From assembly GCA_973895155.1 (NCBI GenBank), contig OZ316891.1, positions 10,169,875 to 10,233,874 of the forward strand: 64,000 bases of DNA, read 5' to 3'. This stretch comes from Marsupella aquatica. Its lineage: Eukaryota > Plantae > Marchantiophyta. The notes below the pieces were generated by a model, which was not told the origin of the DNA, searched no databases, and saw only the letters and a program-made list of their open reading frames with translations. The number at the start of each line of letters is the position of its first letter. Position 1 is the stretch's first letter. Positions 8,894 through 42,700 of this stretch are shown one piece after another. A program made the position numbers and the translations under genes.

Positions 8894-11415
8894 TCAGCGA
8901 AATCGTTCAATAAATTGTTCTGGGATGTTTCCCTCAAACATACCGATACCCCACTGCAGCTCACACGACCGAACTTCTGGCACGTCAGTGTGCGCATCGC
9001 CAATGTAGGATGGTTCGGGCTCATCAAGAGGGCACTGCATGTTATGTGGGTGATCAATAAAACATGGCCCGGGAAGGTTCGTTCTCCAGCAAGGTGGATT
9101 CGGGACCTGCTTCTTGTTGATCCCATACTGGTTGAACACAATGGGCTTGATCCCTGCAAGCCCGTGAGAGACGTACCCGAATGTGGACCTCGGACTGCTG
9201 ATGATATCGTCCGCGAAGCTCAGTAGCCATATATCTGCTATGACTTTCTTCTCGTGGGAAAGCTGCCCCGTTTGCTGCTCGCTCTCGGAGCTGGGACTGA
9301 AGATGTCCACCTTGCTGCCAGTTCCTTCCGTTTGCACACTTCTGTTGAAAACCTCCGCCAGATTTTCGGCATACTCCTTCCTCAGTGAAGTGAGCACCAC
9401 GGAGATGCGCTCGTCCACGTCTCGTGGCTTGAGATGAGCTCTTCCAATCCTATTGTTCGGATGTTGAGAAGCATTTATGGACCTGCGGACGTTGGGGAGA
9501 AGGCCGGCGTAGACAGCACAAGAGAGGATATGCTCGCTGATGACCGGCGTGTACCCATTGCTCCAGGCTCGCACTTGGATGGCCAGGCGGCGGTCAGCTG
9601 GTGCCATGTGGGATTTGTAGATGTTCATGATTCGCTCCCAGATTTCCTTTTGTGGGCTTAGTAAATACCTTCCGGCGTGGAGAAACACAGCTCGATCTGG
9701 GAACCAGGCATTGAGCCGAGAGCGAAAGCTTGGAACGAAATAGAATCCTGGGACACTGTACTGATTGCTGCGGTAGAACACCCACGGGATCTTCGTCACG
9801 AGTCTCTGCTCACCCTCACAGAAGAATTTCAAGTCGGACGGTTTCTGCCAGTTCGACAAGAACGCCTCCAAACGCGTTGGTATGTCTAAATTCTGACGTT
9901 CGATAGCGGTTGAATTGATCGAATTGAATGCTCGGTCGTAAAACATGCCGTGCATTTCCGCGCTCTCCCTGATGCGGTCGTCCGGGAAGTCCTCGGGCAG
10001 CACCCAGGAGGATCGAGGGAAGGGCTCACAAAAGAGGTGCTGGAGCTCGGCCCCACGGGTGATGAGCAGCACTCGATTGGTCAGCAGGGCGTAGACGAAG
10101 GCGGAGACGAGGGAGATGAGTTGGTTCCCTTTGCCGTCCAGGTCTCGCCAGACGAGGTACTGGCAATTGGTCGGGGCAGATCCTTGTAGCGCGAGATCTG
10201 TCAATGGATGGCCCTCGGTGCATTTTCTGTGGTGTGCTTCGTAGGTTCGCAGAGCACGGAGGAAGGCAGGTGCGGGGTGATAGTTCGAATTCCAGTAGCA
10301 GTGCTGTTCGTATTTGCTCCTGCATGCTTCCTGGTGCGTAGTCTCTTTTGGACTGACGGGATGATACTGGTGTTGTGCTGGTATGTACTTGCGCACTGCT
10401 CCAATTTCGTCATCACAGTCTGCACCAGAAACCCACGGGATATTACATATTGGCTAGTGACTCTCGCCAGTCTTTCCAACATTTCAAAACCCGACTTCCT
10501 TACTTTCCCAATGGTTCGCTATAAATGTCAACTGAACGAAACTTCAATCTTGCTAGGAGCAGAGTTTTGACATTAATTGTGATTGTCTTTGAAGTTCTGG
10601 TCCGGAGCTTCTCCCTTGATTGAGATAAGTCCACCTCTTTGGAAAGTCAGTCTAAGGCTCTGAGACTCTGAGTGACACCGCATAGATGAGTGTCCATTCC
10701 GTTGGCAATCTCAGCTTCCTCTTATTCATTCAGATTCATGCTAAGTTGCGATCGATGGAAAGCGATGGACTTCATCGTCTTTGTCAATGCCGAGGGATTT
10801 CGAATTCCCTTTATTGTGAAATATTGCAGTATCACTGTCATCGTAGTGATGTAGTTGCTTGAGGCAGCTTCGTGAAATTCAGCTACTAGTGAATGAATAT
10901 ATAAGGGGACTCGAATGGGCTATTCACAATACTGTTCAACAATGATCTCCGAGATTGAAAAGCCACACTGAACAGGAGGCCACCACAGTCAAGAAACTAA
11001 TAGTCAACTCGAAATCAGACTTTCACTATTCTTGAAATGATTGATGTAGCTAGCTACTGTGTGAACCAACAATGATCGAAGTTGAAGGCTCTATATCCTC
11101 CATTTCGCGTTCGTACTAGCAGCTACGTCAATCCCAACAATGGCCATGGATCGAGAACTTAATCAACGCGTCGACGAGAGAGTCAAGCTTGTTGGAGAGA
11201 GAGAGCTTACTGATATCGGACGGCCGTTGAACTCTCCTGTACTTGACAATGGCGACTCCGTCTCTGGAATATGACGAACCCGGCCCGCTCCGTCCAGCAA
11301 TGTGAGAGAAGCTCACGGTAGCGACCAGGAGTCCAATCAAACATACGCCGGAGAACGAGGCCCAATTCTTGGCACTCAATCGAACCGGTTTCCCCCCTCT
11401 GGCCGTTGAAGCCAT
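8894..11415 (-). CDS. GT37-family alpha-1,2-fucosyltransferase (xyloglucan/AGP FUT-like), type II membrane protein, 2 exons
   Basis: Exon 1 11415-11211 (short cytosolic tail plus TM helix, donor A|GTAAGC) splices in frame to exon 2 10419-8894 (acceptor TGGTGCAG). GT37 motifs: CRSKYE..LRTYE.HHRKC, G.GNQLISLVSAFVYALLTNRVLL, LFCEPFPRSSWVLP, AIQVR, DIWLLSFADDIISSPRSTFGYVSHGLAGIKP. Confidence 0.92.
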
Positions 11416-16025: not shown

Positions 16026-18237
16026 CGCTGTCAAAGTGTCCTGCTTACGACGCGCCACAGTGAGAAGGGAGAAATTTACAGAAACTAAAATCATAGAAAC
16101 CACAGAAATGTCCAAGCACCTTCCTTCCCATCACGCTTAAAGGCTCCTATTAAGGACAGTGACGTATTTGCTCCAGACAGAATTGACCAGCTCAAAATGA
16201 ACCGAGAAATGAATAAGATATCAATTATCCGAACATTTCCTGCCATGAAAGGCTTGACTTCCTGCTATCAAACTATTCATTCCTGCACAGGTAGTGCTGT
16301 TACCTGCAGTAAAGTCCGTCTCTTGGCAATGGGTTCAAACTTCTGTGGATCTTCCTCACCGGTCCTGAGCAAAGCTGCAATCCGAAAAGACGATGACAAA
16401 ACAGGTTGCTAAATGACTAACTATGGTGCATGAATGACATAGGATGTCAAAGGTGATTATCGAGATTAGCTGCATTGGATCCTGCTAAGATGTTTTGTAG
16501 TAATTAGCAGCGCATGTTTCAAGTGCAAATCGATTAGCAACACCGTCCTTTGGTAACCGATTAAGCTTCAACTTTGAGAAGCTGGAGTTCTACACCCTCA
16601 GAGGCCTTAATTGGAATGATGCTGGCGTATGTGACACACTCTTGGTATTAGTAAGAGAAGTGTGGACACCTTCTTCGATTTTAAGATATCAATTGAAGAG
16701 ACTGCGAAGTGCCCATGGCTACATATCCAGCTGTCCTCTCTGTGTTTCGGGACCAATTGGCGACCATAGACCTATTAGTCGAGGATTGACGGATAGCAAC
16801 TCGATGCAAGAACGACTTATGTTAACCTCCACTTCGGTGTTATGGATTCTCCACCTTGGACGAATAATGACTTCTTCACCCAAAAACACAAATAACAAAG
16901 TGTCTGAACGTTGGATGTTTCCCTGTTCTCGTCCTCGGAAGGGTCGTCTTGATTCGCATTACAACAATAACCGACCTTTATCACGGCTATGCATAGTAAC
17001 CGAACAATCAGCACAAAAATCCAGCAACGAGTTCGTACCCAACGCCTTAAAGAAGACAAGTGCAACGCGGATCATACTTTGTTAATAGTCCGAAATTGCC
17101 CGAATCATGACACTCAGGCGGGCGCGCCGTCAGGAAGCTTGCTTTCCCTGCTTCCGTGCTCCTCTCCAATCAATTGATACACTCATGTAGTCGCGAGAAA
17201 AGGAACGAGCACGGTCGAAGATGTTTTAGGAAGCTCAATTCAACAATTTTACTCTTGGTCCTCTTTGCTAACGGCAATAATTTATTTCTCTTAGATAGCA
17301 ACCTCCACAAAGCACAAAATGCAGGCCTCAATTCTTCATCCAAGTATTTTCCCAAGCTGGTTGACAAGAAACTCAATTCAATAGAGTGAAATTTCAGAAA
17401 CCGAATAAGCTACGTGACATCTCGTGTCACCTATACATCTACCGATTACAAAAGATAAGCTCCTCTCCTCTCCTCTCCTCTCCAACTGAGTACGCACGCT
17501 GACTGGGGCCGCAGAATTACAAGATTAGGATAGATCCTACAAGGGGAACACACGACATGTCTAACACTGCAAATGCGCTTTCTACAGACATTTCTAACTC
17601 TTCGTGGCGTAAACTGTGAATAGTAATGACTGTTATCTCTCCGATTTGATTGTGCATACAAGCTTGAGCTATGAGTCAGCGTGCAGGCGGCAACAAACCC
17701 TGCCGACCCTGGTAATCGGAACGAGTAGGTAACACTCTCACAGCCTCCCATTCTAATCCTCTTTCATACCATGGAAGTTGTTAAAACAGGACTTATTAAT
17801 CATCAACAGAACTATCTAATCCGAACAGATGAACCAGATTAAAGACAACTACTACAAGGCGCGGGTGCACACCGGCATGGGCTATGCACCGACTATTTCT
17901 GGGAAACCACCACTCATTTGATTTGCAAACGAGTCATAGAGGATTGCGTATCTGCTGAACGTCTGGTTTGAAATTTCCGAGCGCTACGGTGAGAAAACAG
18001 GAAGCATTCAATTGCTCCGACCAGAAAGAGACGTTCAAAACAATCAGCGAACAGAAAACAGAGACCTAGAATCACAGTACTACTTATTCGAAGTGCAAAC
18101 CAAAATTTGCGATTACCTTCAAAAGATTTCTCGATGATCACCAAACCAGTGTAAGAACTCCGTCTCAAAATTTCTTGGCTAAGTTCGTCTTCCGTCAATT
18201 GGTTACTAGTCACTTCACCGTTTGCCTCACATGCCTT

Positions 18238-19004
18238 TGTCGCAACTTTCAACAACATGGATCGGCTAGAAATTGAATCTAGTAACCTCCCATGTACATC
18301 TCAGTGGAATTGAATCTAGTAACCTCCTGTGTACATCTTAGTTCTTCGTGCTCTACCAACCGGCTACTTTCAACAACATGGATCGGCTAGTAATTGAATC
18401 TAGTACCCTCCCATGTCCATCTCACTGGAATTGAATCTAGGAACCTCCTATGTACATCTTAGTTAGTTCTTCGTGCTCTACCACCCAGCCCTTCAGGCTT
18501 GCACATCTGTTGTTAAGTGTGGTTTATTTGGAACACCCTCCCTTGGGCCACACTTGCTTCTCTTGGTTTATTTGGAACACCCTCCCTCGGACCAAACTTG
18601 CTTCAAGAGAAGTGCTAGGAATTGAATCTAGGACCCTCCCACATACATCTTAGTGCACTACCACTACCACTGAGCTAGAGGCCCTTCATGCTTGCACCAT
18701 CTCTTGGTCAAACACCCTTCCTTGAGCCATCCCCTTGAGCCATCCCTTGAGGAGTGCACTGTTTCAAGAGATTTTCTGATGACCTTTGGCTATGATATCA
18801 TGTTGGAACTTTCAACAATATGGACCAGCTAGTAATTGAGATTAGCACCCTCCAATGTACATTTTAGTGATCTACCACTGAACTAAATGCCCTTCATGCT
18901 TGCAGAGTCTCTTATTCAAGTGTGAATCATTTCAAACATTCTCCCTTGAGCCACACTTGCTTCAAGACTATTCATGATCTTTGGCCCTGATATCATGTAG
19001 GGAC
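18238..19004 (-). mobile_element. Tandem array of degenerate TRIM/SINE-like units (17-bp TGT..ACA mini-LTR + PBS-like + tRNA-like cassette)
   Basis: 17-bp sites TGTCGCAACTTTCAACA (18238-18254) and TGTTGGAACTTTCAACA (18801-18817), plus half site TGTAGGGAC (18996-19004). Minus-strand PBS-like TGATATCATAGCC (18800-18788) and TGATATCAGGGCC (18995-18983). tRNA-like GGGCCTCTAGCTCAGTGGTAG...GGGTCCTAGATTCAATTCCTAG (18684-18615) with several partial copies. Confidence 0.7.
18615..18684 (-). pseudogene. tRNA-derived sequence inside the repeat unit (not a functional tRNA gene)
   Basis: A-box TAGCTCAGTGG and T-arm CTAG-ATTCAATTC-CTAG are present, but this copy has an internal GTGGTA duplication and the copies differ from one another. 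Confidence 0.65.
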
Positions 19005-20300
19005 ACATACAAAACTAACACAACATACCTTATGAAATGTTGTTGAATGATTCACTTTTACCTTGCAAAGAGATTTTCCAAACATAGAAACTCTTTCCTT
19101 TCTCATTTGACTACTTTGGCCTTTGTCCACATACACAACAGGTGGAGCTAATTCCTCATCATCATAGGACAATTCTACCAGCTCTGTCACATCTCTTACC
19201 TTTTGTTTCCCTTTCCTCACCCATGCAATAGGCTCTTCCAACAAGTCAATTGTCTCCAAATAATCATTCTTGGGAATCCTATGCCTATCTTTCAAAGGTA
19301 CATACTCACCAAGGGGATCACGAAATGTTACTCTCTTTCCAGGAATGACAGACTCTGTAAATAGATCATCAAAGCGTACAGACTTAAATCCATTAGATTA
19401 TGTTTTCACCTTCAATCTCTTAAAACAACTCTTTTGGGGTGAAAGCTCTGTTTCTGTACTCTTTGGTGAAGCTTCTTCATCATCTGCAATCTCAGAATCA
19501 GTATGATATCTTCCCCAACTGCCAGTCCTAGGTTTTCGTACAAAAACTTCTTCAATTTCAACCTTAGTCACATTGCATGGGTCAACTATACATTTCCAAA
19601 GACATGTCATTCTCGATTTTTCCATGCCCTGTCCATTTAATGGAATTATCCAGCTAGATGCAGGAATAAAAATCCCAGATCTCACCATTTCAATTAGTGT
19701 AGAAAGAAATGTGGCATACAAAGGTCTATCTGTCCTATACTTATACCAAACATACATTCTTTCTACAACATTTTTGTTAGTCAAAGTCACTCTGGACTTT
19801 AGATAAGCTCGCCCATAAATAGAATGTAGTTGTTTTCCTGCAATCACAACTTCATCAAAAATGTTATACATTGCATGCAAGAAATGAGTTTTACCCATAT
19901 CTTTCAAACAATAACCTATCATTCCTTTGAATGTATGCAATTGTCTATTACTCAAGGATTTGCACATCACTTTACCTACAGGAGTCATGTTCTTCACACC
20001 CTGCCAACCCATGTATTTCCTAACAAGGACACCAAACGACCTGGCAGATTTGATTCTGGCTCTTACAACCATTTGCATGTGCAAATGACTCTCTAACTCT
20101 CCTCTCTCTAGAGCTACTAGACCAGATAAACAATGCTCTCGTATTAGTGTATCCATCAAACTCAACTCTTCAGTATGCACATCTGCACCAAGATATCCCA
20201 CTGTAATACTGAGTTCCATCACACTGTCCATTAAAGAAACATCTCCTTGGATGATAGCACGAGCTTTATGTTTCAAAGAAGCCATGTTACATGTGCACAC
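18993..20300 (-). pseudogene. Replitron-type HUH endonuclease/transposase with one in-frame TAA at 19400-19398
   Basis: Motif I-like ELSITVG, HUH motif ERGELESHLHMQ and catalytic-Tyr motif LHTFKGMIGYCLKD (YxxK); no helicase domain. ORFs 19398-20300 and 18993-19295 share a frame, and the 34 codons between them are open apart from that single TAA. Confidence 0.85.
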
Positions 20301-20369
20301 AACTCACGAGAGGTTGAACAGATACAGTCACGTAGCTCAAACAAAATGAAATATAAATATCGTTTGTTT

Positions 20370-20660
20370 TCACAGTGAAAAAAACCTTGCCTTTTGACTC
20401 CACAACAGTTTCTTCTTCCCCTGTCTAATCTGTGGGCCGGGTTTTAATATTCTAAATGGACCAGCAAGTATTTTATGGTTACCTTGACGACAAATCACCC
20501 AACAAAACTCTACGTCTCTTACACAATGAGGGGTTATTGCTTCTATGTTCTCTAAAATAAAATTTCCAATGTTTGATGTTGTGTAAGGAGCGATCAGGTC
20601 TTCTGGCAATTGTGAGTCTTCTGGAAACTCTTCTAGCAACCGTGACTCCACATTGGACAT
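20370..20660 (-). CDS. Hypothetical 96-aa ORF or upstream exon associated with the HUH transposase
   Basis: ATG-initiated, same strand, ends ~70 nt before the HUH ORF. Protein-like composition (MSNVESRLLEEFPEDSQLPEDL...); no family recognised. Confidence 0.35.
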   Translation of the reverse strand: MSNVESRLLEEFPEDSQLPEDLIAPYTTSNIGNFILENIEAITPHCVRDVEFCWVICRQGNHKILAGPFRILKPGPQIRQGKKKLLWSQKARFFSL

Positions 20661-20724
20661 TAATAAACTTAAGACTGTTCAAAAGACAGACTAATAACTC
20701 ATGCACAAGGAATTGAGTTGAAAA

Positions 20725-21109
20725 CTCTAGGTTAGTGAATGACAATGTTACAGCAAAATGAACTGACCAGAGAAATGTTAGCTAAGCCGACACCTCTAGG
20801 TTAGTGAGCGATGACTTTTATTGCAAAAAGAACTGAGCCGAAAGCTCTGGGTTAGTGACCAAGATGACTATTACAACAAAATGAACTGAGTAGGAAGTTA
20901 ATCGAGCCGACAGCTCTGGGTTAGTGAATGAGACAAGAGCAAAACAATAACTGAGCCGATAGCTCTGGGTTAGTGAATGAAACAAGAGCAAAAAGATAAC
21001 TGAGCCGACAGCTCTGGGTTAGTGAACAAGGCAAGAGCAAAAAGATAATTGAGCCGACAGCTCTGGGTTAGTGAACGAGACAAGAGCAAAAAGATAACTG
21101 AGCTGACAA
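20725..21109. repeat. Tandem array of ~49-bp units (7 copies)
   Basis: Core CTCTRGGTTAGTGA at 20725, 20794, 20845, 20914, 20963, 21012 and 21061, usually preceded by GAGCCGANAG. Confidence 0.92.
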
Positions 21110-21158
21110 TGGTAGCACACAATGAGAGGAAAGTTAGGCCACATCCAACTTCAATCCC

Positions 21159-21393
21159 CTGCAAAGCAAAGGCAGAGCCAAGCAAAGAACCTGATCACTA
21201 AGACTTGAGACTCGGGAGCGATGGCAGCGCTGAGCACTGAGAAGTAAGAGCATATTCACTGAACAAGAAAGGAGCCGCTGCAAAGCGAAGGCAAAGCCGA
21301 GCAAAGAACCTGATCACTAAGACTTGAGACTCGGGAGCGATGGCAACGCTGAGCACTGAGAAGTAAGAGCATATTCACTGAACAAGAAAGGAG
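21159..21393. repeat. 119-bp tandem duplication
   Basis: CTGCAAAGC.AAGGCA.AGCC.AGCAAAGAACCTGATCACTAAGACTTGAGACTCGGGAGCGATGGCA.CGCTGAGCACTGAGAAGTAAGAGCATATTCACTGAACAAGAAAGGAG starts at 21159 and 21278. Confidence 0.92.
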
Positions 21394-22199
21394 GTACTGA
21401 ACTGAGAAAGGAACTCGGCTTAAGTAGCTATGCAGCAAGTATAATCTACTCCCCAGACTAAATGCTAAGGTTAGTCACTCGCCCAAAATATTAGCCTGAA
21501 GACCAGATTATACACAACGTTCACTTTTCCTCATACTTTCAAACTCCAAAATACTTGGAAACCTCCAAGATACATGGAAAGACTTGTTATACTAGCTCAT
21601 GGGATCTCACTCAACTAGTCTTAAGCTCAATTTCTGCTCGTGCTCCACTTTGACTCCCACCTCCAGATGGTCTAGGTGCATAAGAAAGCACTGCCCATCC
21701 AAGATATGAACACCTGAGCACTGGAGGTACAGCTCCCTCGACCCAAATCATCTCCAGGGTAGACAAAATCTCATACATCGATCAATCACTCAGTCGCTAC
21801 TTGATCTGCTTGGTAAGGCGATAAGAGAGTTTGCGACAGGACTCAAATGCTTGTGCCAATTTCAAAGTAGCGTCCGTGCTCAAAGACTAGAGCCCCCAAA
21901 AAACCATCATCCCTGGAAGAATTACACCATCACCAGCAACGTACTTTCACATGGAGCTTCCTCGGTGGCCGAAAGACAAATTGCCACGAGAGATGGTTCC
22001 ATAACTTGCCCTGAATAGAGTCTGTGCCAGATAGCAGTGACACACCTCCATCGCCTCCCTCGGCCCACCTCTTGAACATGGATCGCCTCCAAGGCACGAA
22101 GAAAGAGCGCAACTACTCCTGCATCAAAGAATCGTCGCCCACTCGACTTCTCTGTGTTTCTTCTGTGAATGAAAAGTGAATGGCATCTTCAAAAGGAAT

Positions 22200-23100
22200 T
22201 GAGCAATATCGAGAGGCAGCGAAAGCAAGAGCAGACATCAAGAGCGAGAGCTGAGAGCTGGGATCCGATTGAGTCCAGCACTATCATCGAGCAAGAGCAA
22301 ACATCAAGCAGCATCGAGCAGATCAGTAGCAGCAACATCGAGTCCAGCTATCGAGAGGCAGTAGCAAGTGAGAGGCATCAAGCATCGAGTCCACCAGCAA
22401 GCGAGTTCACCAGCAACGAGTCCACCAGCATCGAGCAGCATTGAGCCTCTTCATGGACAAGTTTTGCCTCCTCCACAAGAGCTCTTCGGAGCAAAGCTTC
22501 AGACAGAGGACCTACTGTACAGCCGCCAGCCAGCAGCGACCAAGCCATCGAGAAGAGAGTCAGCATCCTCAAGTCCAGCAGCGAGAGTCAGCATCCTCGA
22601 GTCCAGCATGCAGCCGTAGCCGCATCATCAAGAGTAAATGAGCAACAGCATCGAGAGCGCAGCAGCAGTGAGAGATTGAGTCAAGCAGTAAACGAGTCCA
22701 GCTGCAACAACATTGAGAGCGAACAAGTCAAGCAGCAGTCAGCCAGACGAGTTTGAGCAGCACTCTAACATCGAGAGCATTAGCCACCAAGTGAGATCGT
22801 GAGAACCAGCCAGACCCAAATCAACCAATCCGCATCGAGCTTTGAAACAACGTGGCGATGGTAGCAACGGCAGCAACGATCAATCCCAAGCCCAGCTCAG
22901 CTCGTGATACAGCAACGATCGAGAGCATCAGTGAGCAGCAGCGATCGAGATGAGCAGTAGCGATTGAGAGCATCAGCAAGCATCAATGAGCAGCAACGGC
23001 AGCAGCGATCAAGAGCATCAGTGAGCCCTTCATTGAGAACAAGAGTGAGAGTATCAAGAGCAAGTTGTGAGAGCAATGACGAACATGCAGCACCCAGCTC
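22200..23100. repeat. Low-complexity, strand-biased degenerate repeat tract (AGCAGCATCGAG-like)
   Basis: Dozens of CAGCA/ATCGAG/GAGTCCAGC words with a strong A/G/C over T bias on the + strand. Confidence 0.75.
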
Positions 23101-23371
23101 ACCTCCAAAATGTACGTTTTTTGAAAACGTACCCCTATACCCGCCTTGGATACCCCTAACCTTGGATACCCCTATATTATTCCTTGGGATCGTTGCATGT
23201 GTACCCCACGCCTTGCATACCGACACGTTATTCTTTATTGGATACCCCCACCATTATGTAATTTTATGCATCTAATTGGATGCTTTCACCATAATGTAAT
23301 TTATGCCTAAATATCTCCTACTTTTTGCTAGATGCCAAAAGAACTTGGCATGTTCCAGGATGAGTATGCTA

Positions 23372-23488
23372 TATAGGGACTTCCAACAACATGGACCAGC
23401 TAGCCATGTACATTGATGTGCTCTACCATTGAATTTCAGGCCCTTCATACCTGTATCATCTCTGGTTTGAGTGTGGTTCATTTCCAAG
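23372..23488 (-). mobile_element. Isolated partial copy of the mini-LTR/tRNA-like unit
   Basis: TATAGGGACTTCCAACA (17 bp) is followed by ACATGGACCAGCTAG..CATGTACAT..GTGCTCTACCA.TGAA..GGCCCTTCAT...GTGTGGTTCATTT, matching the units at 18238-19004. Confidence 0.7.
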
Positions 23489-26400
23489 AGCCTAGCTTCG
23501 ACATTTGATAACTTTTCAGTCTATGGCTTTGGCAATACTGTCCTTTGGGTTGCAGTTCAATATTTATAACTTTCAGTACTCTGATTGCAATCTACTGCCA
23601 GGGCAACGGAAAGAATATTTTCAGGAGGGAGGGCAATTGAACTAGATGGTCACAAACAAGAAGGCAAACAACCATCAATGCAGCATCATTGTGCTGGAAA
23701 GAGGTGTCAAAACTATGTTCCCTTTTTCTTTTTGTTAAATCACACAGTTCCCTTGTAAAGTACTCCAGGTAACCTCTAGAGTAGTTGCTTCCTCCTTTAT
23801 TGGGTCTTTTTGCCTTTGTGATCCCACTTTGGCACTTTCTGTTCTTTGATGGTGAGATGTATATTTTAATACTCCTTTTACATATAGTACAATGATGTAT
23901 ATATTGAAGAGCACATTATAATTTTGAGAATTTTAGACTATCAATGTCATCTCAACAGTTCACCACAGGGGCCCTCTAGTGCTCAAACTATAGATAAATT
24001 CACAAGAAAATAGCATCTAGAAATAATTCATATTCATTTAGAAAGCACCAAAATAAAGTTTTTAGGGCACGAGATCCTATGATGGGAAATGAGTTTGACT
24101 CAAACAAAAACTCTGTGTGTGTGTGGGGGGGGGGGGAGCGGCACAGGCGCACCAAAGGCATTTCCATTAGGGGTGTAAATTAGGGACTGTCTAACCTTGG
24201 ACTCTGTATACAGTCCGCTCTTTTTGGATACTCAACTTCAAAGATAATGTGGCAGACTTGCTTGTGGCCGAGGACTGTAACCATGTGTGCACTATCTTGT
24301 GGAGTTGTCCCAATTTGATGGGGTGCAGTGTGACTCCACTGCTACTAGGGTTGGTTTTTCTGGGGAGTTTATCTGACCCCAAAACAAATGGTTAGACTAC
24401 CTTCCAACTCTACAGTCAGTTTCATGTGACAAACCCCAGTGGTCATCGAGCTGGTGGTATATAAATGTTATCTTTCAGGGCAAACCCAGAAAAAGGAGAG
24501 GGAGTGGGGGTCACCCAAATTTGAATTGCAGCCAGGTCTACATCTCTCAACACCCTACCCCATAAACTCTCCTTCAAGGGCTACCCTCACTACAGTAATA
24601 GATTGGGAAAAGGCAAACAAGACGATTTCCATCCTGTTAGGTCACCCCCACCATCACATTGTCTGGCCATTTTAAGTAAATTGGTCCTTTTTCTTTACAT
24701 CCTAAATTAGAAGTCATTTTTAAAGCTTGACTTCTCCCATGATTGGATTGGCTACGGTATATATCCAGTTGAGGAGAACACAATTATGAGGCAACTAAAT
24801 CTGGCCAAAGTGGTGGATTAGGGCCCACCAGCAGCAGCCCAGTTCTGTCTACAGTACCTAAAATGGGCACAATAGTTGTAGTGCAGGCTCATTATTTTTG
24901 TGACAATCCAGGAACAAATCAGCATTGTGCCCCAGCCTACAGAGTCCAACCCGAATCCCTAATATGCTCAACTAGATGCAGCTCGCAAATGAGAAACTAA
25001 TAGAAAGAAAACCTGGCAACTCCTCCATGCCTTCAGCAGTGTTGTTGGGTCCAGTCTCCCTTGCATCCTCTCGAGATTCTGGATTAGCGGAACAAGTAGC
25101 ATATTTGAGCCGAGCTTGCTCTGGTAGTCCTTCTCCTCCCCCCTGTAGCTCGGGCAGCTGCTCCCTCACCTGTGTTTGCCCTTGCAAGAGTGATCACTCA
25201 TGTTCACAGCTCGTGCCTTTCCATGGCTGCGTCTTGTTCCTTCCTTGGACAACTTGGTTCTCGCAATCATGGAGGATCAATGGAGATTGAGGCCCCTGCG
25301 CAATAGGAGATGGAGATTGGGTGCAGCGCACAGTCTGGCCGGAAGAAGCTGCAGCACGCAAGATGCACAGTGTGATACTATTGACAAGAAGTTTTTTCTG
25401 CTGAAAATCAAGGCTGAAAAGATTTTCAGTCAAGCCCTAAAGTGTTCAACCCTGTTTAGTTAACCGTAGTTAGTTATACTCAACTCACCCATCATTGACT
25501 ATTTTACGGATATCTCTAAAGCCCCAGAATTTCATCCAGATATACAAAACTCATGGAGTGAGGGACACAAGTATGATACAAAACAAGACCCGCACACCAT
25601 TATCTTAGCACCTCACAACTTCATTTTTTTAAGCAATCATGAACACATTATACACTATCATAAACAACAAAATTATCTTGAGACCGGGAGTCCTTCCAAA
25701 AATCAACATAAACAAAATGAGTCTTCTTAGATAGAATGCTAAGAAACAAATTCGCCTAGGGCTGGTGGCCTACTCGGTTTTCAGATCATCTATCTATACA
25801 CTATTTTCTCTTTACTAGTGTCCTTTGTGTGCCATGTGTATCTTGTAGGCTATTGGTAGCAACTCACTATGGCACACATGAGGTCACACTTGCAAATCTT
25901 GACCGGGGAGTGATTGTGTGAAAGGTGGAAAGACCCTATAAGGATTAAATCAAAAATAATTCCCTCTTGAAAAGAGGTATCCCTTCAAGGCTAAAGGTGT
26001 GCAAAACATTAAAGTAAAAGTAAAAAATGCAAAGGAATGCGACCCAACAAGGGTCATTAAAACATAAATTGCATCAAAAAAACTTTACGAAACAAAAACT
26101 GAAAGGTAGTTCGCTTACTATCTTTCCAAGAAACATTTCCCAAGCTGCTAATGTATAAATGCATAAATCTTGTTTGAACTACAAGATTCCTTCCTCGAGT
26201 CTGCTCAATGAACAGTAAGGTTTTCATGTAAGAGTTTTCTTTCCTGAGTCTAGCCTTGACCATTAAGGTTGGTACGAATAGCCATTATGGAATCTAGACT
26301 TGCAACTTCTTTTTAAGTAATGGTGAAATTTTCAGCAATATGTCATATGTTGACCTGGTGGAAGTCAGAACGGGAGTCAGAACCAATGCGTTGCTCCTCC

Positions 26401-30063: not shown

Positions 30064-33000
30064 ATGAGCAACGCAGGAGGCTCGGACAATCCTCCTGCAT
30101 TCCAGATGTCGGATCTGGGGGCGACACTTCCTGGCACAGGTCCGCTTTCCTTCATCTGTGCTATTCGACGCCTTTCTCTCACTCCTATTGCCGAAATGTT
30201 CACCTTCCTCTTGCGGACTGCGACATGGCCTTTTGTCGTGACTTAAATCTTGCGGCTGCCAAGCCCTGATGGCAGTCAACAGAACGCACCCGCAAGTCCA
30301 AATATCACACGGTCGATGATATGTTTGGAGATGAATTTGCAGCCTCCAGAAGGTCACGTTCACAGCGTCCATTTCTTCCTCTCATTGAACAAGAAAGTCC
30401 GTGGTGAAGTATTTCTGAAAGTCAGACTTGTCGTCCTCTAGTAGTGTAGTTTGGGATCACTATCCGTGCCTGGAAGTTGGTAAGGATTGGTTGGAATAGC
30501 AGTCTGGCACGCAAATGCTTGACGTTCGGTACAGGTATTCGCGATTCTTCCCGACTTTTAGTTGGACTTCCCCAATGATCGTTAGCTTCGCCGCGGATGG
30601 TTTGGCTTCCCATCCTAATGGACTTTGGATGGTGCTGCAGGTCTGAGTGCGGCGGACCGCGCAGGACTGGTCAGTGTTCTGAAGGTTGGTGCATTCTCGT
30701 CCCCTGTGCTGTTATCGAATGTTGTAACACTTACCATCCTTGGCTTTCTGATTTCGGTTTCATGATGTTTATCTCTCTCCAGGACAAGCTCCAGTTCCTT
30801 GCAGGGCAATCTTCTGGGTACCTCGAATCTCTATCCCCTAATGTGAAGGACCGAGTCGCCGTTCTTCAATCACTTCAGGTTGGCAGGCTGACATTGAAAA
30901 GCCGAATTTTGTTCCTCCATGATTTCCTCGTGAAATCAAGTCTAGAAATTGTTTGTTTCGACACTTTTATGCTGGAAACCTAATTGGTACTCATGTTTGG
31001 GTTGACTTAAGGTTTTCTGATGAGGATGGGAAAGAGCTGATAGTTACTTCTGTTGTGTCAGAGTGAGCATGATGAGCTTGAGGCGAAGTTTCACGAGGAA
31101 AGAGCTGCATTAGAAGCTAAATACCAAAAGTTGTATGACCCACTTTATAGAAAGGTAAGGTCTGGGTTCCTGTTGATTATGATGCCTCTGAAGCTTAGGT
31201 GCTATGGTTTCCTAACAGCAGTTGTTCACGAAAATTTTCTTTAAGGTGCAGCGTACTGAATTTTATTTTATCTCACCAAGCCTTTTGACCAGGGTCATGT
31301 ACAGCTTTCAGTCTCTGTCATGTCTTGGATTAGTAGGGGCTTTTGGCTTACTGGTTTAATTGCACAATGGAAAGGTCTTTACTTTCCTTTTTAGTGGTGT
31401 TATTTTTAGACAACTCCGCAATGAAAACATAGGTCCAGGCATCGGGAATGAGTTTGTTATCCTTAGCTCGATCCTACCTATTCTTGTTGTTGATGGCATA
31501 GTGTTAACTGGAAGTTGTGTGCCATTCCTCACACATTGTTTTCCCTTTTCCGCAGCGCTCTGATATTGTGAATGGAGTTGTAGATGTTGAACACAAGGCA
31601 CCTGAAGGAGAGACACCTCTTCAAGCCGACAAGGATGATGGTTTTCCCTCACCCTAACTGTAACTCCGAACGAGATTTTTTTAAGCTACCGACGGACCTG
31701 TTCTTGCCTTAGATGACAGAATGAAGAGAATGGAGCGTGAAAGGTTCTAGATATAATTTTGGGTCAGTTGGCAGTTGAATAAGTTTTTTAATCCAATGGG
31801 ATGAAAACCTTTGGTGTGCAGAGAAAGGTGTCCCTGAGTTCTGGCTAACTGCCATGAAAACGAATGAGATATTGGCTATCCAGGTATAAGCATCCTGTGG
31901 TTCAGTCTCACCGTTGTCCATCCGTTTAGAACCTTATCACTACATATTTTTATTAGGATTTAAAAGAGAAATCAGATGCTGTCCTCCTTTCATGTATGTG
32001 TCCTTGGGATGGTCCTGACTCAAAGCGTCTTCTCAGATCACGGAGCGTGATGAGGGTGCTCTAAAATACTTGAAAGACATCAAATGGAGCAACTTGGAAG
32101 ATAACAAGGGATTTAAGCTTGACTTCTATTTTGAACCCAATCCTTATTTCAAGAACACATTGGTAAGTCAACGGCGATGCTTTTACTCTTGTATGCTGGC
32201 GCCGGGCTTCGTGAGCCCTTATTTTGCGGACCTAAGTATGAGCGAGTTCTTTTATCACATAAGTGAAGATGAGGAACGAGACTAACTGATTTATTTTCCT
32301 GTACAGCTTACTAAGACTTATCACATGATCGATGACGATGAACCGATCTTGGAACGTGCTGTGGGGTAAGTTAATCAACCAGCGTGTAAAAAAAGCCGCG
32401 CGTTAATCAGATAGATATTTACTCAGGAAGGGATGAGATAAAGATCATGTTCCCGGGCAAGAGTATCTATCGTTTCACTGGGGCAAGGAGGTGATTAGGG
32501 CCCGGCGATGCGATGCAATTCAAGACTTAGCGTAGTAACACTAAAAGTTAGCATGTGGACAGAGTTAGAGGGAATTATAGTTGAACTACGGTTGTCGATT
32601 AGATTATTGGGCTAGAATTTGATGGTGTTAGTTCAAGCAGTAATGAAAGGTTTATGTCCGGATAACCTCCATCACGATACTAGGAGGGTGAGAGAATTAT
32701 TTACGCAGGAATTATGAAGATGTGAGTTGGGAACTTTGATTGCGAGGCATAGACTCCTGCCCTTGCTGACCTCTTCAGGCTATGTAGTCCATGAGATGAG
32801 ATGTTTCAGTGGAAATGTTCTGTACGATGCTTCTCAATCGTTGCCCAACTATCATATGCAAGAGTCCTAACGGTTTTGGAGTTCGACAATATTTGTGCAG
32901 CACCGAGATCGAGTGGAGTGTCACGAAAAATTTAACTCAAAAGGTGATGAAGAAGAAACCAAAGAAAACAACCAAGAATACCAAGCCTGTCACCAAGATA

Positions 33001-34320
33001 GAGCAGTGCGAAAGTTTCTTCAACTTTTTCAACCCACCCCAAGTACCTGATGATGATGATATTGACCAAGAGACAGTGAGTAAATTCTTTTTTGTGCTTT
33101 CTATTTGTGTGTTCTTTTTACCTTCTGTAGTCGAGTCTTGCCTTTCCCTATCGACTGATACTTTCTATATTGCTTCCAGGCTGAACAGTTGCAAGAGTTG
33201 ATGGAGCAAGATTATGATGTCGGGTAGGTCCGCTTAAACTTTCTCTGAAGTTGTGCAACCGTCTCTACTGAGCCTAGCGTTTGACTAGCGTTCCTTGTCG
33301 ATTTGTCTCCCAAGACATTGATTATGAATGTAACGAATGCAATTGGAGTCTATTATGATGTAACGAATGCAACTGTCATGAAGCGTGCTCTATTTCGTCT
33401 CTAGCATATGCATCAAACTTTCTTGTGACGTCCAGGGTAGGACAGGTGGTGTTGCTATCATTCTAGCCGCGATTTTTCTCGATTTGGCCGTTGTTGCATG
33501 TGTTGTTATTCAGGCCGTTGAATCTGCTTATTTAAGTCTTGGAATTGAGATTCACGAACAGTTTATTCCGTCTTATTTCTCTTACCATCCCTGATCACAA
33601 TTCGCCAATTTTGTCTCCTTACAGTTCTACCGTCAGGGACAAGATTATTCCCCATGCTGTCTCCTGGTTTACCGGAGAGGCATTACAAGCAGAGGACTAT
33701 GATGTTGAGGATGATGATGGTGAAGATGATGAGGATGATGAGGATGACGAAGACGACGAAGATGATGATGAGGATGATGATGAGGAGGAGGAGGAGGATG
33801 AAGAGGAGGAGGAGGATGTCCGTGTTCGGAAGGTAAGTGATGCAGTGTGTGATGGTGGACAGAATGTGAAAGGCTGTCCCTGACTTGTTGGTACTTTATA
33901 GCTAACCATTATCATGTGCGGCATTTATATTACAATATGCTACGTCTCATCCATGATACTATTTTCAGTTATAGGGTCTCTTAATTGAAGCCATTTTCTG
34001 AATTTTTTTATGTGGTTCTCTCTGCCAGCAGAGAGGTGGGCTTGCACCAAAGGTGAGATTCGTAGCCAAACAATTGTGGTTCAAAACTTGTTCCCACACA
34101 TGTTCCTCTACCTGTCAGATCTTAGGTCAGGAGAAGATATAGCAGCCACTTTTGTTTGCTCTTCGAGCAGAGTTTTGCGACTTCTGCACCAGAGAGACTC
34201 TGTCCATTTTCTCGCTCCCATCTCACATATTTGGGGACTGAATTTCAGGGTGCACCAAAGGGTGGTTCAGCAGCAGCAGGGCAAGGTGTTGAGCAACCAC
34301 CAGACTGCAAACAGCAATGA
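30064..34320 (+). CDS. NAP1: Nucleosome assembly protein 1 (NAP1 family histone chaperone), 13 exons
   Basis: Exons 30064-30139, 30641-30684, 30783-30878, 31062-31154, 31556-31640, 31822-31883, 32037-32162, 32307-32365, 32901-33075, 33180-33223, 33625-33832, 34029(or 34032)-34052 and 34249-34320. Motifs [81 protein letters not shown], an acidic tail and the C-terminal CKQQ farnesylation box. Confidence 0.97.
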
Positions 34321-36430: not shown

Positions 36431-36758
36431 TAAATGCACTCCTAGCCCACACATGACTTTGTGGTAATTCACTTGAGGAGAGACTGATAAAATGCACTCC
36501 TAGCCCACACACATGACTGTGTGGTAGTTCACTTGAGGAGAGACTGATAGGTTTTGTGGTATGTGTGGTATGAGGAGAGACTCATAGGTCTTGGGTTCAA
36601 TTGTTGTTATGGGTAACTTTTTTCCGCTGTTGTGATTGACTCTATTCTTTCTGTGGGGTTTCATAGATTTCCCCTATAAAAGGGAGGAAAATAATGGAAA
36701 CTTCTTTCTGTGGGGTTTCATAGATTTCCCCTATAAAAGGGAGGAAAATAATGGAAAC
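36431..36758. repeat. Two adjacent tandem duplications (~59 bp and ~56 bp)
   Basis: AAATGCACTCCTAGCCCACACATGACT.TGTGGTA.TTCACTTGAGGAGAGACTGATA twice (36431-36549); TTCTTTCTGTGGGGTTTCATAGATTTCCCCTATAAAAGGGAGGAAAATAATGGAAAC twice (36645-36758). Confidence 0.85.
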
Positions 36759-39173: not shown

Positions 39174-39594
39174 TGTTGAGCATAGACGACGATCGCAACG
39201 GCAAGCCCATGAACCATCCAACGCACAATAGTCGACACAAGAGATACGTGGTTCACCTCCTTGAGGCTACGTCCACGGGAACACACAAGAGAGCTTTACT
39301 GAACTCTAAGCCCATCAGCTATACCGAGTCTCCACAGTGTAAGCTCTCCCTATCTCTCAAGTGGCTCCATACCAATGAGCCTTGGTTCTACCTCTCCAAG
39401 CACACATGCCTCTTATGATATAGTGTGCAACTTAGTTGTACCTAACCACATAGTTGTACCTAATCACGTAGTTGTACCTAACCACATAGTTGTACCTAAT
39501 CACGTAGTTGTACCTAACCACGTAGTTGTACCAACCCACGTTGTTGTACCAACCACGTCATACCTAACCTAGACGTAAGAGTAAATACCCAACA
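39174..39594 (-). repeat. 3' LTR of the copia element
   Basis: Identical by eye to 45250-45670 and adjacent to the PPT. Confidence 0.97.
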
Positions 39595-39784
39595 ATCTTC
39601 CCCTTGACTCTGGTCTAGGGGAGAGTAATACTGCCAATGTATATGATCCCTCAGCGGGAAGTTCTGGACAAAAACCAAACTGGTTTCCCTCTCTAACTAG
39701 AGCAAACCAGAACTAAGCCGTAGCCTAATACATAGGAATGAGGAAGAGCATATATCAGTAATTACAATGAATGTTAAGAAAACT

Positions 39785-42700
39785 CTACTTGTGATGCAAT
39801 TGCAAAACCTGCAATACGTCACGGTGTCTAGAGAAACTCTCCAAAGGAATCACTTTGGTAAATGCGTCAGCCGGGTTGAGTTTACCATCAATCTTGACTA
39901 GCTCAAACAAATTATCAGACACAGCCTGCCTGATAAAATGGTACCTGACATCAATGTGCTTCACTCTGCTGTCCATCACCTGGTTCATAGCAAGGTGGAG
40001 CGCACTTTGACTATCACAATGGAGCTTCACATTCCCCTGTGGCAATCCCATTTCAGTGATAAGTCTATCCAACCAAATTGCTTCCTTTGCTGCTTCCGCA
40101 GCTGCAACATACTCCGCTTCTGTAGTAGACTGAGCAATACACTTCTGCAAAGTAGACCTCCAACTTATGCATCCACCGCCAAGTGTGAACACGTATCCTG
40201 TTGTTGATCTCATTCGGTCCAAATCTTGTCCATAGTCAGAATCAACATAGCCAATCAATGATTTAGCATTCTTTGCATTCGCATCAAATAAAAGACCATG
40301 ATCCACGGTACCCTTCAAGTACCTGATAATCCACTTCACTGCTTCCCAGTGTACCTTCCCTGGATTTGACATGTATCTGCTTACCTTGCCCATAGCCATG
40401 GCAAGATCAGGTCTAGTGCAAGTCATCAAATACATGAGACTCCCCACTGCCTTGTCATACGGAACCTTTGACATCAACCCCTTCTCTGTGTCATCCGTAG
40501 GACAGAACGCTGATGATAACTTGAAGTGTGGAGCCAACGGGGTACTTACTGGCTTGCTATTCCCCATGTTGAACCTTGCAATTACCTTCCTCGCATAACT
40601 GCTCTGCGTCAACCATAGCTTGCCAGCCTCCAAGTCCCTAGTGATCTCCATACCCAAAATCCTCTTAGCTGGCCCTAAGTCCTTCATCTTAAACTCTGCA
40701 CTAAGCAGTGCCTTGAGCTTAACAATCTCAGACCTATCCTTGGCTGCAATTAGCATATCATCCACATAAAGTACTAAAACAATGAACCCAAATACAATAT
40801 TCTTTACCGATTTCAAATACACACAAGGGTCAAATACACTTCTGTGAAAACCTTGTGACCGAATCCAATCGTCAAACTGCTTGTTCCACTGTCTTGGTGA
40901 CTGCTTCAACCCATACAAGGATTTCAGCAATCTGCAAACCAATTCCTCCTGTCCTCTCTTCACAAAACCTAGCGGTTGTCTCATGAAGATCACCTCTTCC
41001 AATGTGCCATAGAGGAAAGCTGTGACAACATCCATCTGATCTAGCAGCAGACCAAACATTACAACAAGTACACACAATAGTCGTATTGTAGAGTACTTAG
41101 CAACTGGTGAGAAGACCTCATTGTAATCCACACCTTTCTCTTGTGTGAATCCCTTTGCTACCAACCTAGCCTTGTAGACCTTCGATCCACCTCCTATGGA
41201 ATTATCCTTCAGCTTGTAAATCCACTTGCTGTCCACCACTTGCTGACCCTTAGGCAGCTTAACAAGCTCCCAAGTTTTGTTGTCCTTTAGTGACTGCATC
41301 TCCGTTTGCATTGCTGCAGTCCACTTCTACTTCTCCTTTTGAAGCACTTGCCTCATGAAATGAAGAAGGTTCCCCTTCTTCCAAAATTAACGCATCACCC
41401 TCATCATCAGTTGCAAAATCATTTTCTTGCAGTTGAGATGAATCAACCCACTGTCCATACCTTGGTGGAGCACGTATAGTGCGACCAGATGTTCTTCTAG
41501 CCGATGACTTCGGTTGATCTGCGTGTGCTGATACAATTTGAAGCTCAACAGCATCCACTTGCTGCTCACCAGCATCAACAAACTCCTCTGGTTCCTCTGG
41601 CACAAGAACCAGCTCCATAATTGGAGTAACTCCTTCTCTCCGGTCATGCACCTCATAACCAATCTCCCCCTCAACGAGATCCGGGATAGGAGATTTTCCT
41701 TTGTCAGTACGGGAGACCTGAGTATTCTCCCCCTCCTTCAATAATCTGGATTCATTGAAGGAAACATCCCTACTGACAACAAGCTTACAGGCAATAGGAT
41801 CCCATAGCCTATAGGCTTTCACACCACTCTGGTACCCAAGAAAAACACATTTCTTGGAGGTAGGATCCAACTTGGTCCTATTCTGCTTCGGTGTGAGAGC
41901 ATATGCATCACTTCCAAAAACTACCAAGCCATGATAGTCTGCTTGCCGCTTATAGCGCATCTCAAATGGTGTTTTGAAATTGATAGCACTAGAAGGAGAA
42001 AGATTTACCAAATAAGCTACGGTATTGATAGCTTCTGCCCAAAATTCTTGTGGTAAACCTGATTGGCTCAACATACTCCGTGACCGCTCCAACAGTGTCC
42101 GATTGAGCCTCTCAGCGACACCATTCTACTGCGGAGTATAAACTGTGGTGAGATGGCGAGTTATCCCCTGTTCTGAACAGTACTCTTCAAATTCCATTGA
42201 AGTGTACTCCCCGTCGTTGTCTGACCTCAGACTCTTCACCCTTGTATCCAAACACTTGATCGTGTTTCCAGTCTGATTCTCCACCTGGGCCTTCCACTTC
42301 TTAAAAATGGACAAGACATCAGACTTATGCGTCATGAAATAAATCCACACAAATCTTGAGTAATCATCAATAAATGATACATAGTACAACTTTCCAGAGT
42401 GTGAGGGAGTCGAGGATGGACCCCACACGTCACTATGTATGTACTCAAGAACCGCTTTGGAACGATGAGTTCCAACACCAAAAGCACGATGATGCTGCTT
42501 TCCAAGAATGCAATGCTCACAAAACTCTAATTTACAAGATTGCAAATCAGAAATGAGTCCATTCTTCCGTAAGATAGCCAAACCCTTCTCACTCATGTGG
42601 CCTAGCCGTGAATGCCACAGTTGAGTCATCTCCTCGTGAGACTTGGTTACATTGGCCTCTCCACATACAGTATTGCCCTGTAACACATACAAATTCTTTT

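What the first reader, a model, noticed from the sequence alone, without database searches (positions are those of the whole stretch)
18238..19004. Tandem retro-like unit with a 17-bp 'LTR', a Met-PBS-like site and an embedded tRNA (Pol III) cassette
Seen in sequence: read on the minus strand, the ~195-bp unit is [TGTTGAAAGTTCCAACA]-[TGATATCA(T/G)(A/G)GCC]-~95-nt spacer-[tRNA-like GGGCCTCTAGCTCAGTGGTAG..ATGTACAT..GGTCCTAG.TTCAATT.CTAGCTGGTCCA]-next 17-mer. The 17-mer has the TGTTG..CAACA ends of an LTR. It is followed directly by a two-mismatch version of the tRNAi-Met PBS (TGGTATCAGAGCC), the same ends and PBS used by the copia element at 39-45 kb. The array starts exactly at a 17-mer (18238) and stops half-way through one (19004). 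Established knowledge: TRIM LTRs are usually about 100 bp or longer, and Cassandra TRIMs carry a 5S Pol III promoter. Inference: this may be a minimal non-autonomous retroelement that has shrunk its LTR to the integrase attachment ends and uses a captured tRNA as promoter, parasitising copia RT/integrase and forming tandem arrays.
Basis: partly seen in the sequence, partly recalled or inferred. Interest (0 to 1): 0.8.

Follow-up and report, generated by a model that had tools for sequence, protein, structure and literature searches.

The report
tRNA-bearing mini LTR retrotransposon in liverwort
This is a decayed head-to-tail cluster of a tiny gene-less jumping element whose end repeats are about 138 bases long (not 17) and carry tRNA-type promoter motifs, a kind described in 2024 as Helenus, here in what is likely a liverwort, so it is probably a new host record and not a new kind of element.

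Summary
The true LTR start follows a polypurine tract inside the supposed spacer, and the tRNA-like cassette lies inside the LTR. The unit is LTR (138) + PBS-to-PPT interior (57) = 195 bp: a TRIM with tRNA-derived LTRs, i.e. Helenus (Kojima 2024), whose only listed plant family is in Selaginella. Contigs of other copies from four public runs confirm both LTR ends, the PPT, an intact box B, a Met-type PBS (best 12/13) and 58-59-bp interiors elsewhere. The array stops 'half-way through a 17-mer' because a 4.37-kb insertion carrying a Replitron transposase split the 5' LTR, whose main part lies at 23489-23374. A host gene points to a liverwort. Only one unit is intact; the rest is truncated or locally duplicated, as is common for tandem TRIMs. 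Pol III transcription and Copia dependence are inferred, and the neighbouring copia is not shown to be the partner. This scan has noted Helenus-type elements in other genomes before. New member of a known kind; interest 0.22.

The parts
23490..23494 (-). Left flank 5-mer TAGGC, candidate target-site duplication of the whole array
   Evidence: 4 of 5 match to 18237-18233, P=0.014 at fixed places; boundaries were chosen after inspection
23374..23489 (-). LTR1: main part of the 5' LTR (U3 and degenerate tRNA-like cassette with a 20-bp deletion), cut before its last 2 bases
   Evidence: 81 of 107 aligned bases identical to LTR2; contigs of other copies stop matching at 23487 and go on with CA on the + strand then mixed flanks, 6/5/7/7 contigs, agreement 0.50-0.56
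19005..23373 (-). 4369-bp insertion inside LTR1 carrying a Replitron HUH transposase frame (20303-19398); flanked by GTCCCTA at 23380-23374 and 19004-18998; may hold further nested DNA
   Evidence: Pfam Replitron_HUH E 6.9e-14 and Replitron_C E 4.6e-06; 7/7 duplication; very many other contigs match 23320-23375 and end there with mixed flanks
18996..19004 (-).
   Evidence: contigs of other copies match up to 18998 (table 8)
18939..18995 (-). Interior 1 (57 bp): PBS-like 18995-18983, left arm of an inverted repeat 18959-18951, PPT 18947-18939
18801..18938 (-).
   Evidence: loose ends at 18801 in 10/6/8 contigs of X1/X3/X4 with agreement 0.42-0.48; other copies differ at 18934, 18939, 18940 so as to give a longer G-rich PPT and a TGTTGGAA start
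18715..18800 (-). Interior 2 (86 bp): PBS-like 18800-18788 and a 13-bp local triplication of the PPT end
   Evidence: 44 of 56 aligned bases identical to interior 1
18613..18714 (-). LTR3, partial (U3 deletion, 3' end missing) with the best-kept cassette: box A 18677-18667, box B 18628-18618, T-arm-like 18631-18615
18536..18612 (-). Two copies of the interior 3' end with PPT (18612-18580, 18562-18536) around a 17-bp LTR start: a 44-bp local duplication
18238..18535 (-). LTR5 (18535-18363, with a 37-bp internal duplication) and a 121-125-bp duplicate of its 3' part (18362-18238) ending GCGACA
   Evidence: (87 of 94 identical between the duplicates)
18233..18237 (-). Right flank 5-mer AAGGC, candidate target-site duplication

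Best explanation
The stretch is a decayed tandem array of a non-coding miniature LTR retrotransposon (TRIM) with 138-bp LTRs that each hold tRNA-type box A/box B motifs and a 57-bp interior running from a Met-type primer-binding site to a polypurine tract, which is the Helenus architecture; it was likely transcribed by RNA polymerase III from the tRNA cassette and likely mobilised in trans by a Copia element. Inferred cycle: Pol III would start at the tRNA-like 5' end inside the 5' LTR and read through PBS, interior, PPT and into the next LTR (no T4 run lies in the element on this strand); host initiator tRNA-Met would prime minus-strand synthesis; the tRNA-plus-U5 part would serve as the repeat for strand transfer; the PPT, held in the loop of a short inverted repeat as in many Ty1/copia elements, would prime the plus strand; a borrowed integrase would insert the TG...CA ends with a 5-bp duplication. 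The multi-LTR form likely arose by read-through or unequal recombination, then decayed through deletions and 13-121-bp local duplications, and a Replitron-carrying insertion split the 5' LTR. This copy is most likely dead.
For: Shown: four PPT+TGTT junctions within 410 bp, of 13 such strings in the whole window. Full LTR and interior read directly. Other copies in four runs (94/52/133/142 contigs laid): LTR 3' end at 18801 (10/6/8 contigs in three runs, mixed flanks); G-richer PPT and TGTTGGAA start (6-19 contigs per run at each of 18934, 18939, 18940), which makes an 8-bp terminal inverted repeat with TTCCAACA; box B GGTTCAA in loose ends at 18839 (8/5/13/12 contigs); LTR-PBS-58/59 bp-PPT-LTR joints at two other loci; LTR 5' end at 23489; one contig with TGGTATCAGAACC directly after TTTCAACA. 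Box A+B pair unique in the window, 0 in 20 nulls; local alignment of LTR3 and LTR2 to a real tRNA beats 500 of 500 shuffles each. Sizes and layout match Helenus-1_SMo (LTR 120, interior 85, Met-type PBS). The inverted repeat around the PPT/LTR junction is a described Ty1/copia feature (PMC2829016). Tandem TRIMs are common (PMC4717578; PMC13570524), and tandem Helenus arrays are noted for LTR-11_DR.
Against: No tRNA call by ARAGORN or Rfam, and the cassettes do not fold as cloverleaves (z -0.36 and -0.28). No perfect TGGTATCAGAGC was seen in any TRIM copy: of 5 readable PBS-like stretches of other copies in the rows shown, 3 begin TGG and 2 begin TGC, and table 3 shows no row for 18798 (8 rows hidden). 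The outer TSD is only 4 of 5. LTR identities are 72-76% with about as many transversions as transitions (12 vs 14 for LTR1/LTR2), which could mean that the LTRs come from different subfamilies. The PPT hairpin is modest (8 and 17 of 200 shuffles fold as well). No similarity to the neighbouring copia beyond generic motifs. Pol III use and mobility are untested.
Confidence: 0.88

Rival explanations
1. One reading: a minimal element whose LTR is just the 17-bp attachment sequence, with the tRNA cassette in the interior.
For: The 17-mer has TGTTG and CAACA ends, is followed directly by a PBS-like site, and the array ends at or within such 17-mers.
Against: No PPT precedes the 17-mer, whereas PPT+TGTT stands 121 bases upstream. 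Contigs of other copies run through 18817 (e.g. pieces 18784-18839) and break at 18801 and 23487. The break at 19004 is explained by the Replitron-carrying insertion. A 17-bp repeat would leave almost nothing for strand transfer (inference).
Confidence: 0.02
2. An ordinary TRIM (Pol II type) in which the box A/box B likeness is a relic of an old tRNA-SINE insertion or chance and no longer acts as the promoter.
For: No tRNA call; box B is decayed in every window copy; Kojima himself proposes SINE insertion as the origin and has no experimental proof of Pol III use.
Against: Other copies keep GGTTCAA within a CTAGG/CCTAG stem (loose ends) while their U3 parts diverge (loose ends at 18516, agreement 0.57-0.59); the cassette sits at the same place in every LTR; no poly-A tail.
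Confidence: 0.07
3. The cluster is a patchwork of separate insertions of related subfamilies into or beside each other, not one tandem element bounded by one TSD.
For: LTRs differ by 24-28% with many transversions; U3 starts differ between LTR2 and LTR5; TSD 4 of 5 only.
Against: All parts are head-to-tail on one strand in LTR-interior-LTR order; LTR1 lacks exactly the terminal CA that stands before the first PBS, with a 7/7 duplication (P 5e-5). This rival changes the history of the locus, not the element type.
Confidence: 0.2

Closest known systems
Helenus (TRIMp3), Kojima 2024, Biology 13:119, PMC10886601; nearest family Helenus-1_SMo of Selaginella moellendorffii. Seen: parts 1-4 of 6 of the text (abstract to Discussion), passage searches, supplement searches and part 2 of 11 of the supplement.
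   Same: Non-coding, under 1 kb (a two-LTR unit would be about 333 bp against 325 bp for Helenus-1_SMo); tRNA-like box A (TRGCY...YGG) and box B (GGTTC in other copies) near the LTR 3' end; PBS and PPT at the ends of a short interior; Met-type PBS directly after the LTR's CA; by eye similar LTR start, GATCCAT...TTCCAACA end and an inverted repeat around the PPT; tRNA part not a working tRNA; tandem arrays known.
   Different: Host is likely a liverwort; the paper's table has one Viridiplantae row and no Marchantia, Physcomitrium or Calypogeia entry. LTR 138 vs 120 bp, interior 57 vs 85 bp. No T4 run before the LTR end. This copy is old, multi-LTR and interrupted. Common ancestry with Helenus-1_SMo was judged by eye only and is not established.
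Cassandra TRIM and its tandem arrays (PMC7215508, passages seen)
   Same: Pol III gene-derived cassette in the LTR, Met PBS, LTR-interior-LTR tandem arrays.
   Different: Cassandra carries 5S rRNA sequence, not tRNA boxes, and is 565-860 bp long; no 5S match here.
Tandem-array TRIMs (TA-TRIMs) and SMARTs (PMC4717578 and PMC13570524, passages seen)
   Same: Shared LTRs between short interiors; arrays of 3 or more LTRs that often keep a TSD; truncated and rearranged derivatives.
   Different: Ordinary TA-TRIMs have no described tRNA cassette; that survey of 48 genomes found no TRIM in Physcomitrella, and no liverwort appeared in the part of its table that I saw.
Replitrons (Craig 2023, PMC10288648; passages and section 9 part 1 of 2 seen), for the insertion at 19005-23373
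   Same: Replitron HUH and C-terminal Pfam domains, non-seed plant host, short direct repeat at the ends, hairpin near the right end.
   Different: Here the 7-bp repeat looks like duplicated target, since other copies of the left end do not carry it in full; Craig saw target duplications only in Chlamydomonas. Not followed up.

Membership tests
Helenus (TRIMp3) | Two or more direct LTRs with TG...CA ends | tested here: met
   LTR2 18938-18801 complete; ends confirmed by loose ends of other copies at 18801 and 23487
Helenus (TRIMp3) | Non-coding, shorter than about 1 kb | tested here: met
   Interior 57 bp here, 58-59 bp at two other loci (tables 5 and 5c)
Helenus (TRIMp3) | tRNA-derived sequence inside the LTR with box A (TRGCY, YGG) and box B (GGTTC) | tested here: met
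   Box A exact in LTR3, box B one change away; unique in the window, 0 in 20 nulls; GGTTCAA in 8/5/13/12 contigs of other copies. ARAGORN and Rfam give no tRNA call
Helenus (TRIMp3) | PBS just after the 5' LTR | tested here: met
   11/13 twice in the window, 12/13 in another copy; no perfect copy seen
Helenus (TRIMp3) | PPT just before the 3' LTR | tested here: met
   Four junctions at 18947, 18723, 18588, 18544; G-richer in other copies
Helenus (TRIMp3) | 5-bp TSD (plant and fungal families) | tested here: inconclusive
   TAGGC/AAGGC, 4 of 5, P 0.014; both flanks of other copies could not be read together
Helenus (TRIMp3) | Interspersed multi-copy family | tested here: met
   52-142 contigs per run laid, many with unrelated flanks at the LTR ends; no copy number can be given
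Helenus (TRIMp3) | Transcription by RNA polymerase III (proposed, unproven for Helenus itself) | not testable with these tools
   Needs RNA data or an experiment
Cassandra | 5S rRNA-derived sequence in the LTR | tested here: not met
   No 5S match in Rfam scans at E<=10
tRNA-derived SINE | tRNA head at the 5' end, A-rich or simple-repeat tail, no LTR/PBS/PPT | tested here: not met
   The cassette is internal to an LTR, is followed by an LTR end and PBS, and has no tail
   No PPT there; contigs of other copies run through 18817

The most novel reading that the evidence does not exclude
Probability: 0.25. Interest if true: 0.45.

Novelty: new member of a known kind. Interest (0 to 1): 0.22.

Why it matters
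It removes the striking claim (an LTR shrunk to 17 bp) and files the locus under a class described in 2024. What remains is modest but real: Helenus had a single plant family on record, so a multi-copy family in a liverwort extends it to bryophytes and raises a testable question about an ancient land-plant lineage. Such elements also inflate tRNA pseudogene counts and scatter Pol III promoters through a genome. At roughly 333 bp for a two-LTR unit it is near the lower size limit reported for Helenus (311 bp) and shows which cis signals (ends, PBS, PPT with its flanking inverted repeat, Pol III boxes) a minimal LTR parasite keeps.

Tried and rejected
No whole genome is held for this window, so the genome-wide BLAST and TSD survey could not be run; laid contigs were used instead. 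ARAGORN and Rfam at E<=10 on three stretches gave no tRNA or 5S match, only chance snoRNA/CRISPR-type hits. An exact-pattern scan of metagenome contigs for box A + LTR end + PBS gave 1 hit, which is a bacterial tRNA-Gly: rejected as chance, then used only as a tRNA for the alignment test. No RNA holder listed. TRIM vs the window's copia: no significant similarity; the copia's PPT junction does not fold into the flanking hairpin at minimum energy (z -0.77; 1088 of 2000 shuffles as good). The two outer flanks have no other match in the window, so no empty site could be checked. The PPT hairpin as a sign of plant-specific ancestry or as a new feature: rejected, because by eye it is present in 20 of 23 fungal Helenus interior/LTR pairs printed (many related to each other) and it is described for Ty1/copia elements. 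The tRNA isotype could not be assigned. Earlier scan notes by sequence and by place: none. In one search runs X1 and X2 gave no cover of the window's own copy over much of 23180-23660, and the left junction of the insertion is crossed by X3/X4 contigs with only 24 letters on one side, so it does not count as bridged.

Full report
What is in the sequence. It is not a regular 195-bp tandem: Tandem Repeats Finder finds only 121-, 37-, 44- and 13-bp periods, and a search with up to 4 mismatches finds one exact 17-mer (18817), one with 2 mismatches (18254) and one with 4 at 23388, besides the reverse readings of the first two and five scattered 4-mismatch hits elsewhere. The array is real DNA: four public runs from two studies hold it. 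X1 spans it in one identical piece and may be the source of the window; X3 and X4, from the other study, cover most of it with contigs that have no differing letters, including the junction at 19004/19005.

The LTR is 138 bp, not 17. Inside the supposed spacer, a purine run followed by TGTT occurs four times (18947, 18723, 18588, 18544), of 13 such strings in the whole window. This is the PPT/LTR junction of an LTR retroelement (established knowledge). Contigs of other genomic copies, laid at 80% likeness (94, 52, 133 and 142 contigs in X1-X4), test this independently. They leave the window at 18801 with unrelated flanks (10, 6 and 8 contigs in X1, X3, X4; agreement 0.42-0.48), which fixes the LTR 3' end. 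They run through 18817, so the 17-mer's 5' end is no boundary. At 18940, 18939 and 18934 most laid depth reads G on the minus strand (6-19 contigs per run and place), giving a G-rich PPT and a TGTTGGAA start that is an 8-bp inverted repeat of the TTCCAACA end. Joints 18965 to 18784 (all four runs, 15 letters between) and 18966 to 18784 (X2, X4, 13 letters between) show LTR-PBS-interior-PPT-LTR with 59- and 58-bp interiors at other loci. These tables are cut by the tool (218 loose-end rows and 473 pieces hidden), so the counts are of rows shown, and depth is not a copy number.

The tRNA-like cassette lies inside the LTR. A scan for a generic box A/box B pair (full consensus recalled; its cores TRGCY, YGG and GGTTC are those given by Kojima) finds one pair with at most 1 mismatch in the 64-kb window, in LTR3 (18677 and 18628), and none in 20 simulated windows; at 3 mismatches 3 of 4 hits are in the array. 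LTR3 and LTR2 align to a real tRNA better than all 500 shuffles each. Other copies carry GGTTCAA at box B (loose ends at 18839 in 8, 5, 13 and 12 contigs). Against a working tRNA: ARAGORN and Rfam call nothing and the cassettes do not fold as cloverleaves. No T4 run lies in the element on the minus strand.

The PBS. At 18792 most laid depth in X1, X3 and X4, and a quarter in X2, reads G on the minus strand, restoring the GAGCC end. One X2 contig reads TGGTATCAGAACC directly after TTTCAACA, 12 of 13. Of five readable PBS-like stretches of other copies in the rows shown, three begin TGG and two TGC; none is perfect. A Met-type PBS is well supported, a perfect one was not seen.

Why the array stops half-way through a 17-mer. 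A further LTR lies 4.4 kb away on the same strand (23489-23374; 81 of 107 aligned bases identical to LTR2). Other copies leave the window at 23487 and continue with CA on the + strand and then mixed flanks (6, 5, 7, 7 contigs), which fixes the LTR 5' end at 23489. This LTR lacks its last two bases; they stand at 18997-18996, right before the first PBS, and GTCCCTA is duplicated at 23380-23374 and 19004-18998 (P 5e-5 at fixed places). The 4369 bp between hold a frame with Replitron HUH and C-terminal domains, and a very abundant terminus ends at 23374-23375. So a Replitron-carrying insertion split the 5' LTR (inference, strong). The whole structure is then flanked by TAGGC and AAGGC, 4 of 5 (P 0.014, boundaries chosen after inspection), a plausible but unproven TSD. 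LTR identities of 72-76% mean an old insertion or a mix of subfamilies.

Host. The xyloglucan fucosyltransferase frame at 8894-10453 has its best hits in Calypogeia fissa (77%), Marchantia polymorpha (60%) and Riccia sorocarpa (52%), against 40% for Ceratopteris. One gene, so 'likely a liverwort, probably a leafy one'. Replitrons are reported from non-seed plants including liverworts and not from seed plants (PMC10288648, passages), which fits.

The neighbouring copia. It spans 39174-45670 with identical 421-bp LTRs, a perfect TCAAG duplication, TGTTG...CAACA ends and TGGTATCAGAGC two bases after the LTR, so a young Met-primed Copia exists in this genome. It shares no significant sequence with the TRIM (best E 1.3); that it is the partner is not shown. 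Copia dependence rests on the Met-type PBS, the probable 5-bp TSD and a short inverted repeat around the PPT/LTR junction (18959-18951 with 18925-18917; 8 of 200 shuffles fold as well, and 17 of 200 for the second junction), a feature described for Sireviruses and almost half of classic Ty1/copia elements (PMC2829016, passages).

Comparison with what is known. Kojima 2024 (PMC10886601; parts 1-4 of 6 read; supplement searched and part 2 of 11 read) defines Helenus as TRIMs with a tRNA-derived sequence in the LTR, a PBS and a PPT, 311-1263 bp long, with 5-bp TSDs in fungi and plants, Copia-dependent in fungi, sometimes in tandem arrays, and not shown experimentally to use Pol III. Its only plant family is Helenus-1_SMo (LTR 120, interior 85). 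By eye that family shares with this one the Met-type PBS without spacer, the position of the cassette, the last part of the LTR and the hairpin around the PPT; the tRNA part and the hairpin are general to Helenus (hairpin seen by eye in 20 of 23 fungal pairs), so common ancestry is open. Tandem TRIMs are common in plants: 129 subfamilies in 35 of 43 genomes (PMC4717578, passages), 97 tandem copies in sugar beet of which 73 keep a TSD (PMC13570524, passages), and Cassandra arrays with multi-unit transcripts (PMC7215508, passages). I found no report of Helenus in a liverwort or moss in searches (listings only, plus passages of PMC12859917 and PMC13570524) or in the Helenus paper's text and table; Repbase, Dfam, subscription journals and supplements of liverwort genome papers were not seen. 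Earlier notes of this scan report Helenus-type elements in other genomes; they came after my reading was fixed and I did not test them.

Verdict. Observation partly confirmed; interpretation right in kind and wrong in its novel part. It works like, and passes the testable membership criteria of, Helenus, with the TSD inconclusive and Pol III use untested. New member of a known kind, in a new host lineage. Interest 0.22.

Noticed in passing
window 19005-23373 (minus): Insertion with a Replitron transposase frame (20303-19398, 301 aa; a second open frame 19397-18993 follows), flanked by a 7-bp direct repeat that looks like duplicated target; Craig 2023 saw target duplications only in Chlamydomonas. 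Hairpins lie near both ends.
   Followed up: partly
window 23320-23375: A 55-bp terminus with very high summed contig depth (5756 in X1, 77117 in X4, against about 20-130 for single pieces): probably the end of an abundant, perhaps non-autonomous, Replitron-related family.
   Followed up: no
window 20700-23180: Inside the insertion: tandem repeats of 49-53, 119 and 14-28 bp and a CAG-rich degenerate region; possibly a further nested element.
   Followed up: no
window 23374-23611: One contig each in X3 and X4 matches LTR1 plus its upstream flank at about 88-90% and continues past 23374 with other letters (records 20 and 28): possibly a paralogous copy without the Replitron insertion; its further letters were not shown.
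   Followed up: no
window 39174-45670 (minus): Young Copia element: identical 421-bp LTRs with an internal 18-bp array, perfect TCAAG duplication and Met PBS, yet its gag-pol is broken into four frames.
   Followed up: partly
window 18959-18917 and 18556-18515; supplement of PMC10886601: An inverted repeat holds the PPT and the LTR start in a loop; by eye the same geometry occurs in Helenus-1_SMo and in 20 of 23 fungal Helenus pairs, with different sequences. Described for Ty1/copia (PMC2829016), but the words hairpin and inverted do not occur in the Helenus paper's main text.
   Followed up: partly
window 8894-10453 (minus) and 32800-33201 (plus): Host genes: a xyloglucan fucosyltransferase frame without stops over 519 codons, and an exon of a nucleosome assembly protein with an acidic tail near 33.7 kb.
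   Followed up: partly
window 47418-47820, 56865-57247, 36432-36758: Further short tandem arrays (111-113, 66, 57-60 bp periods) of unknown origin.
   Followed up: no
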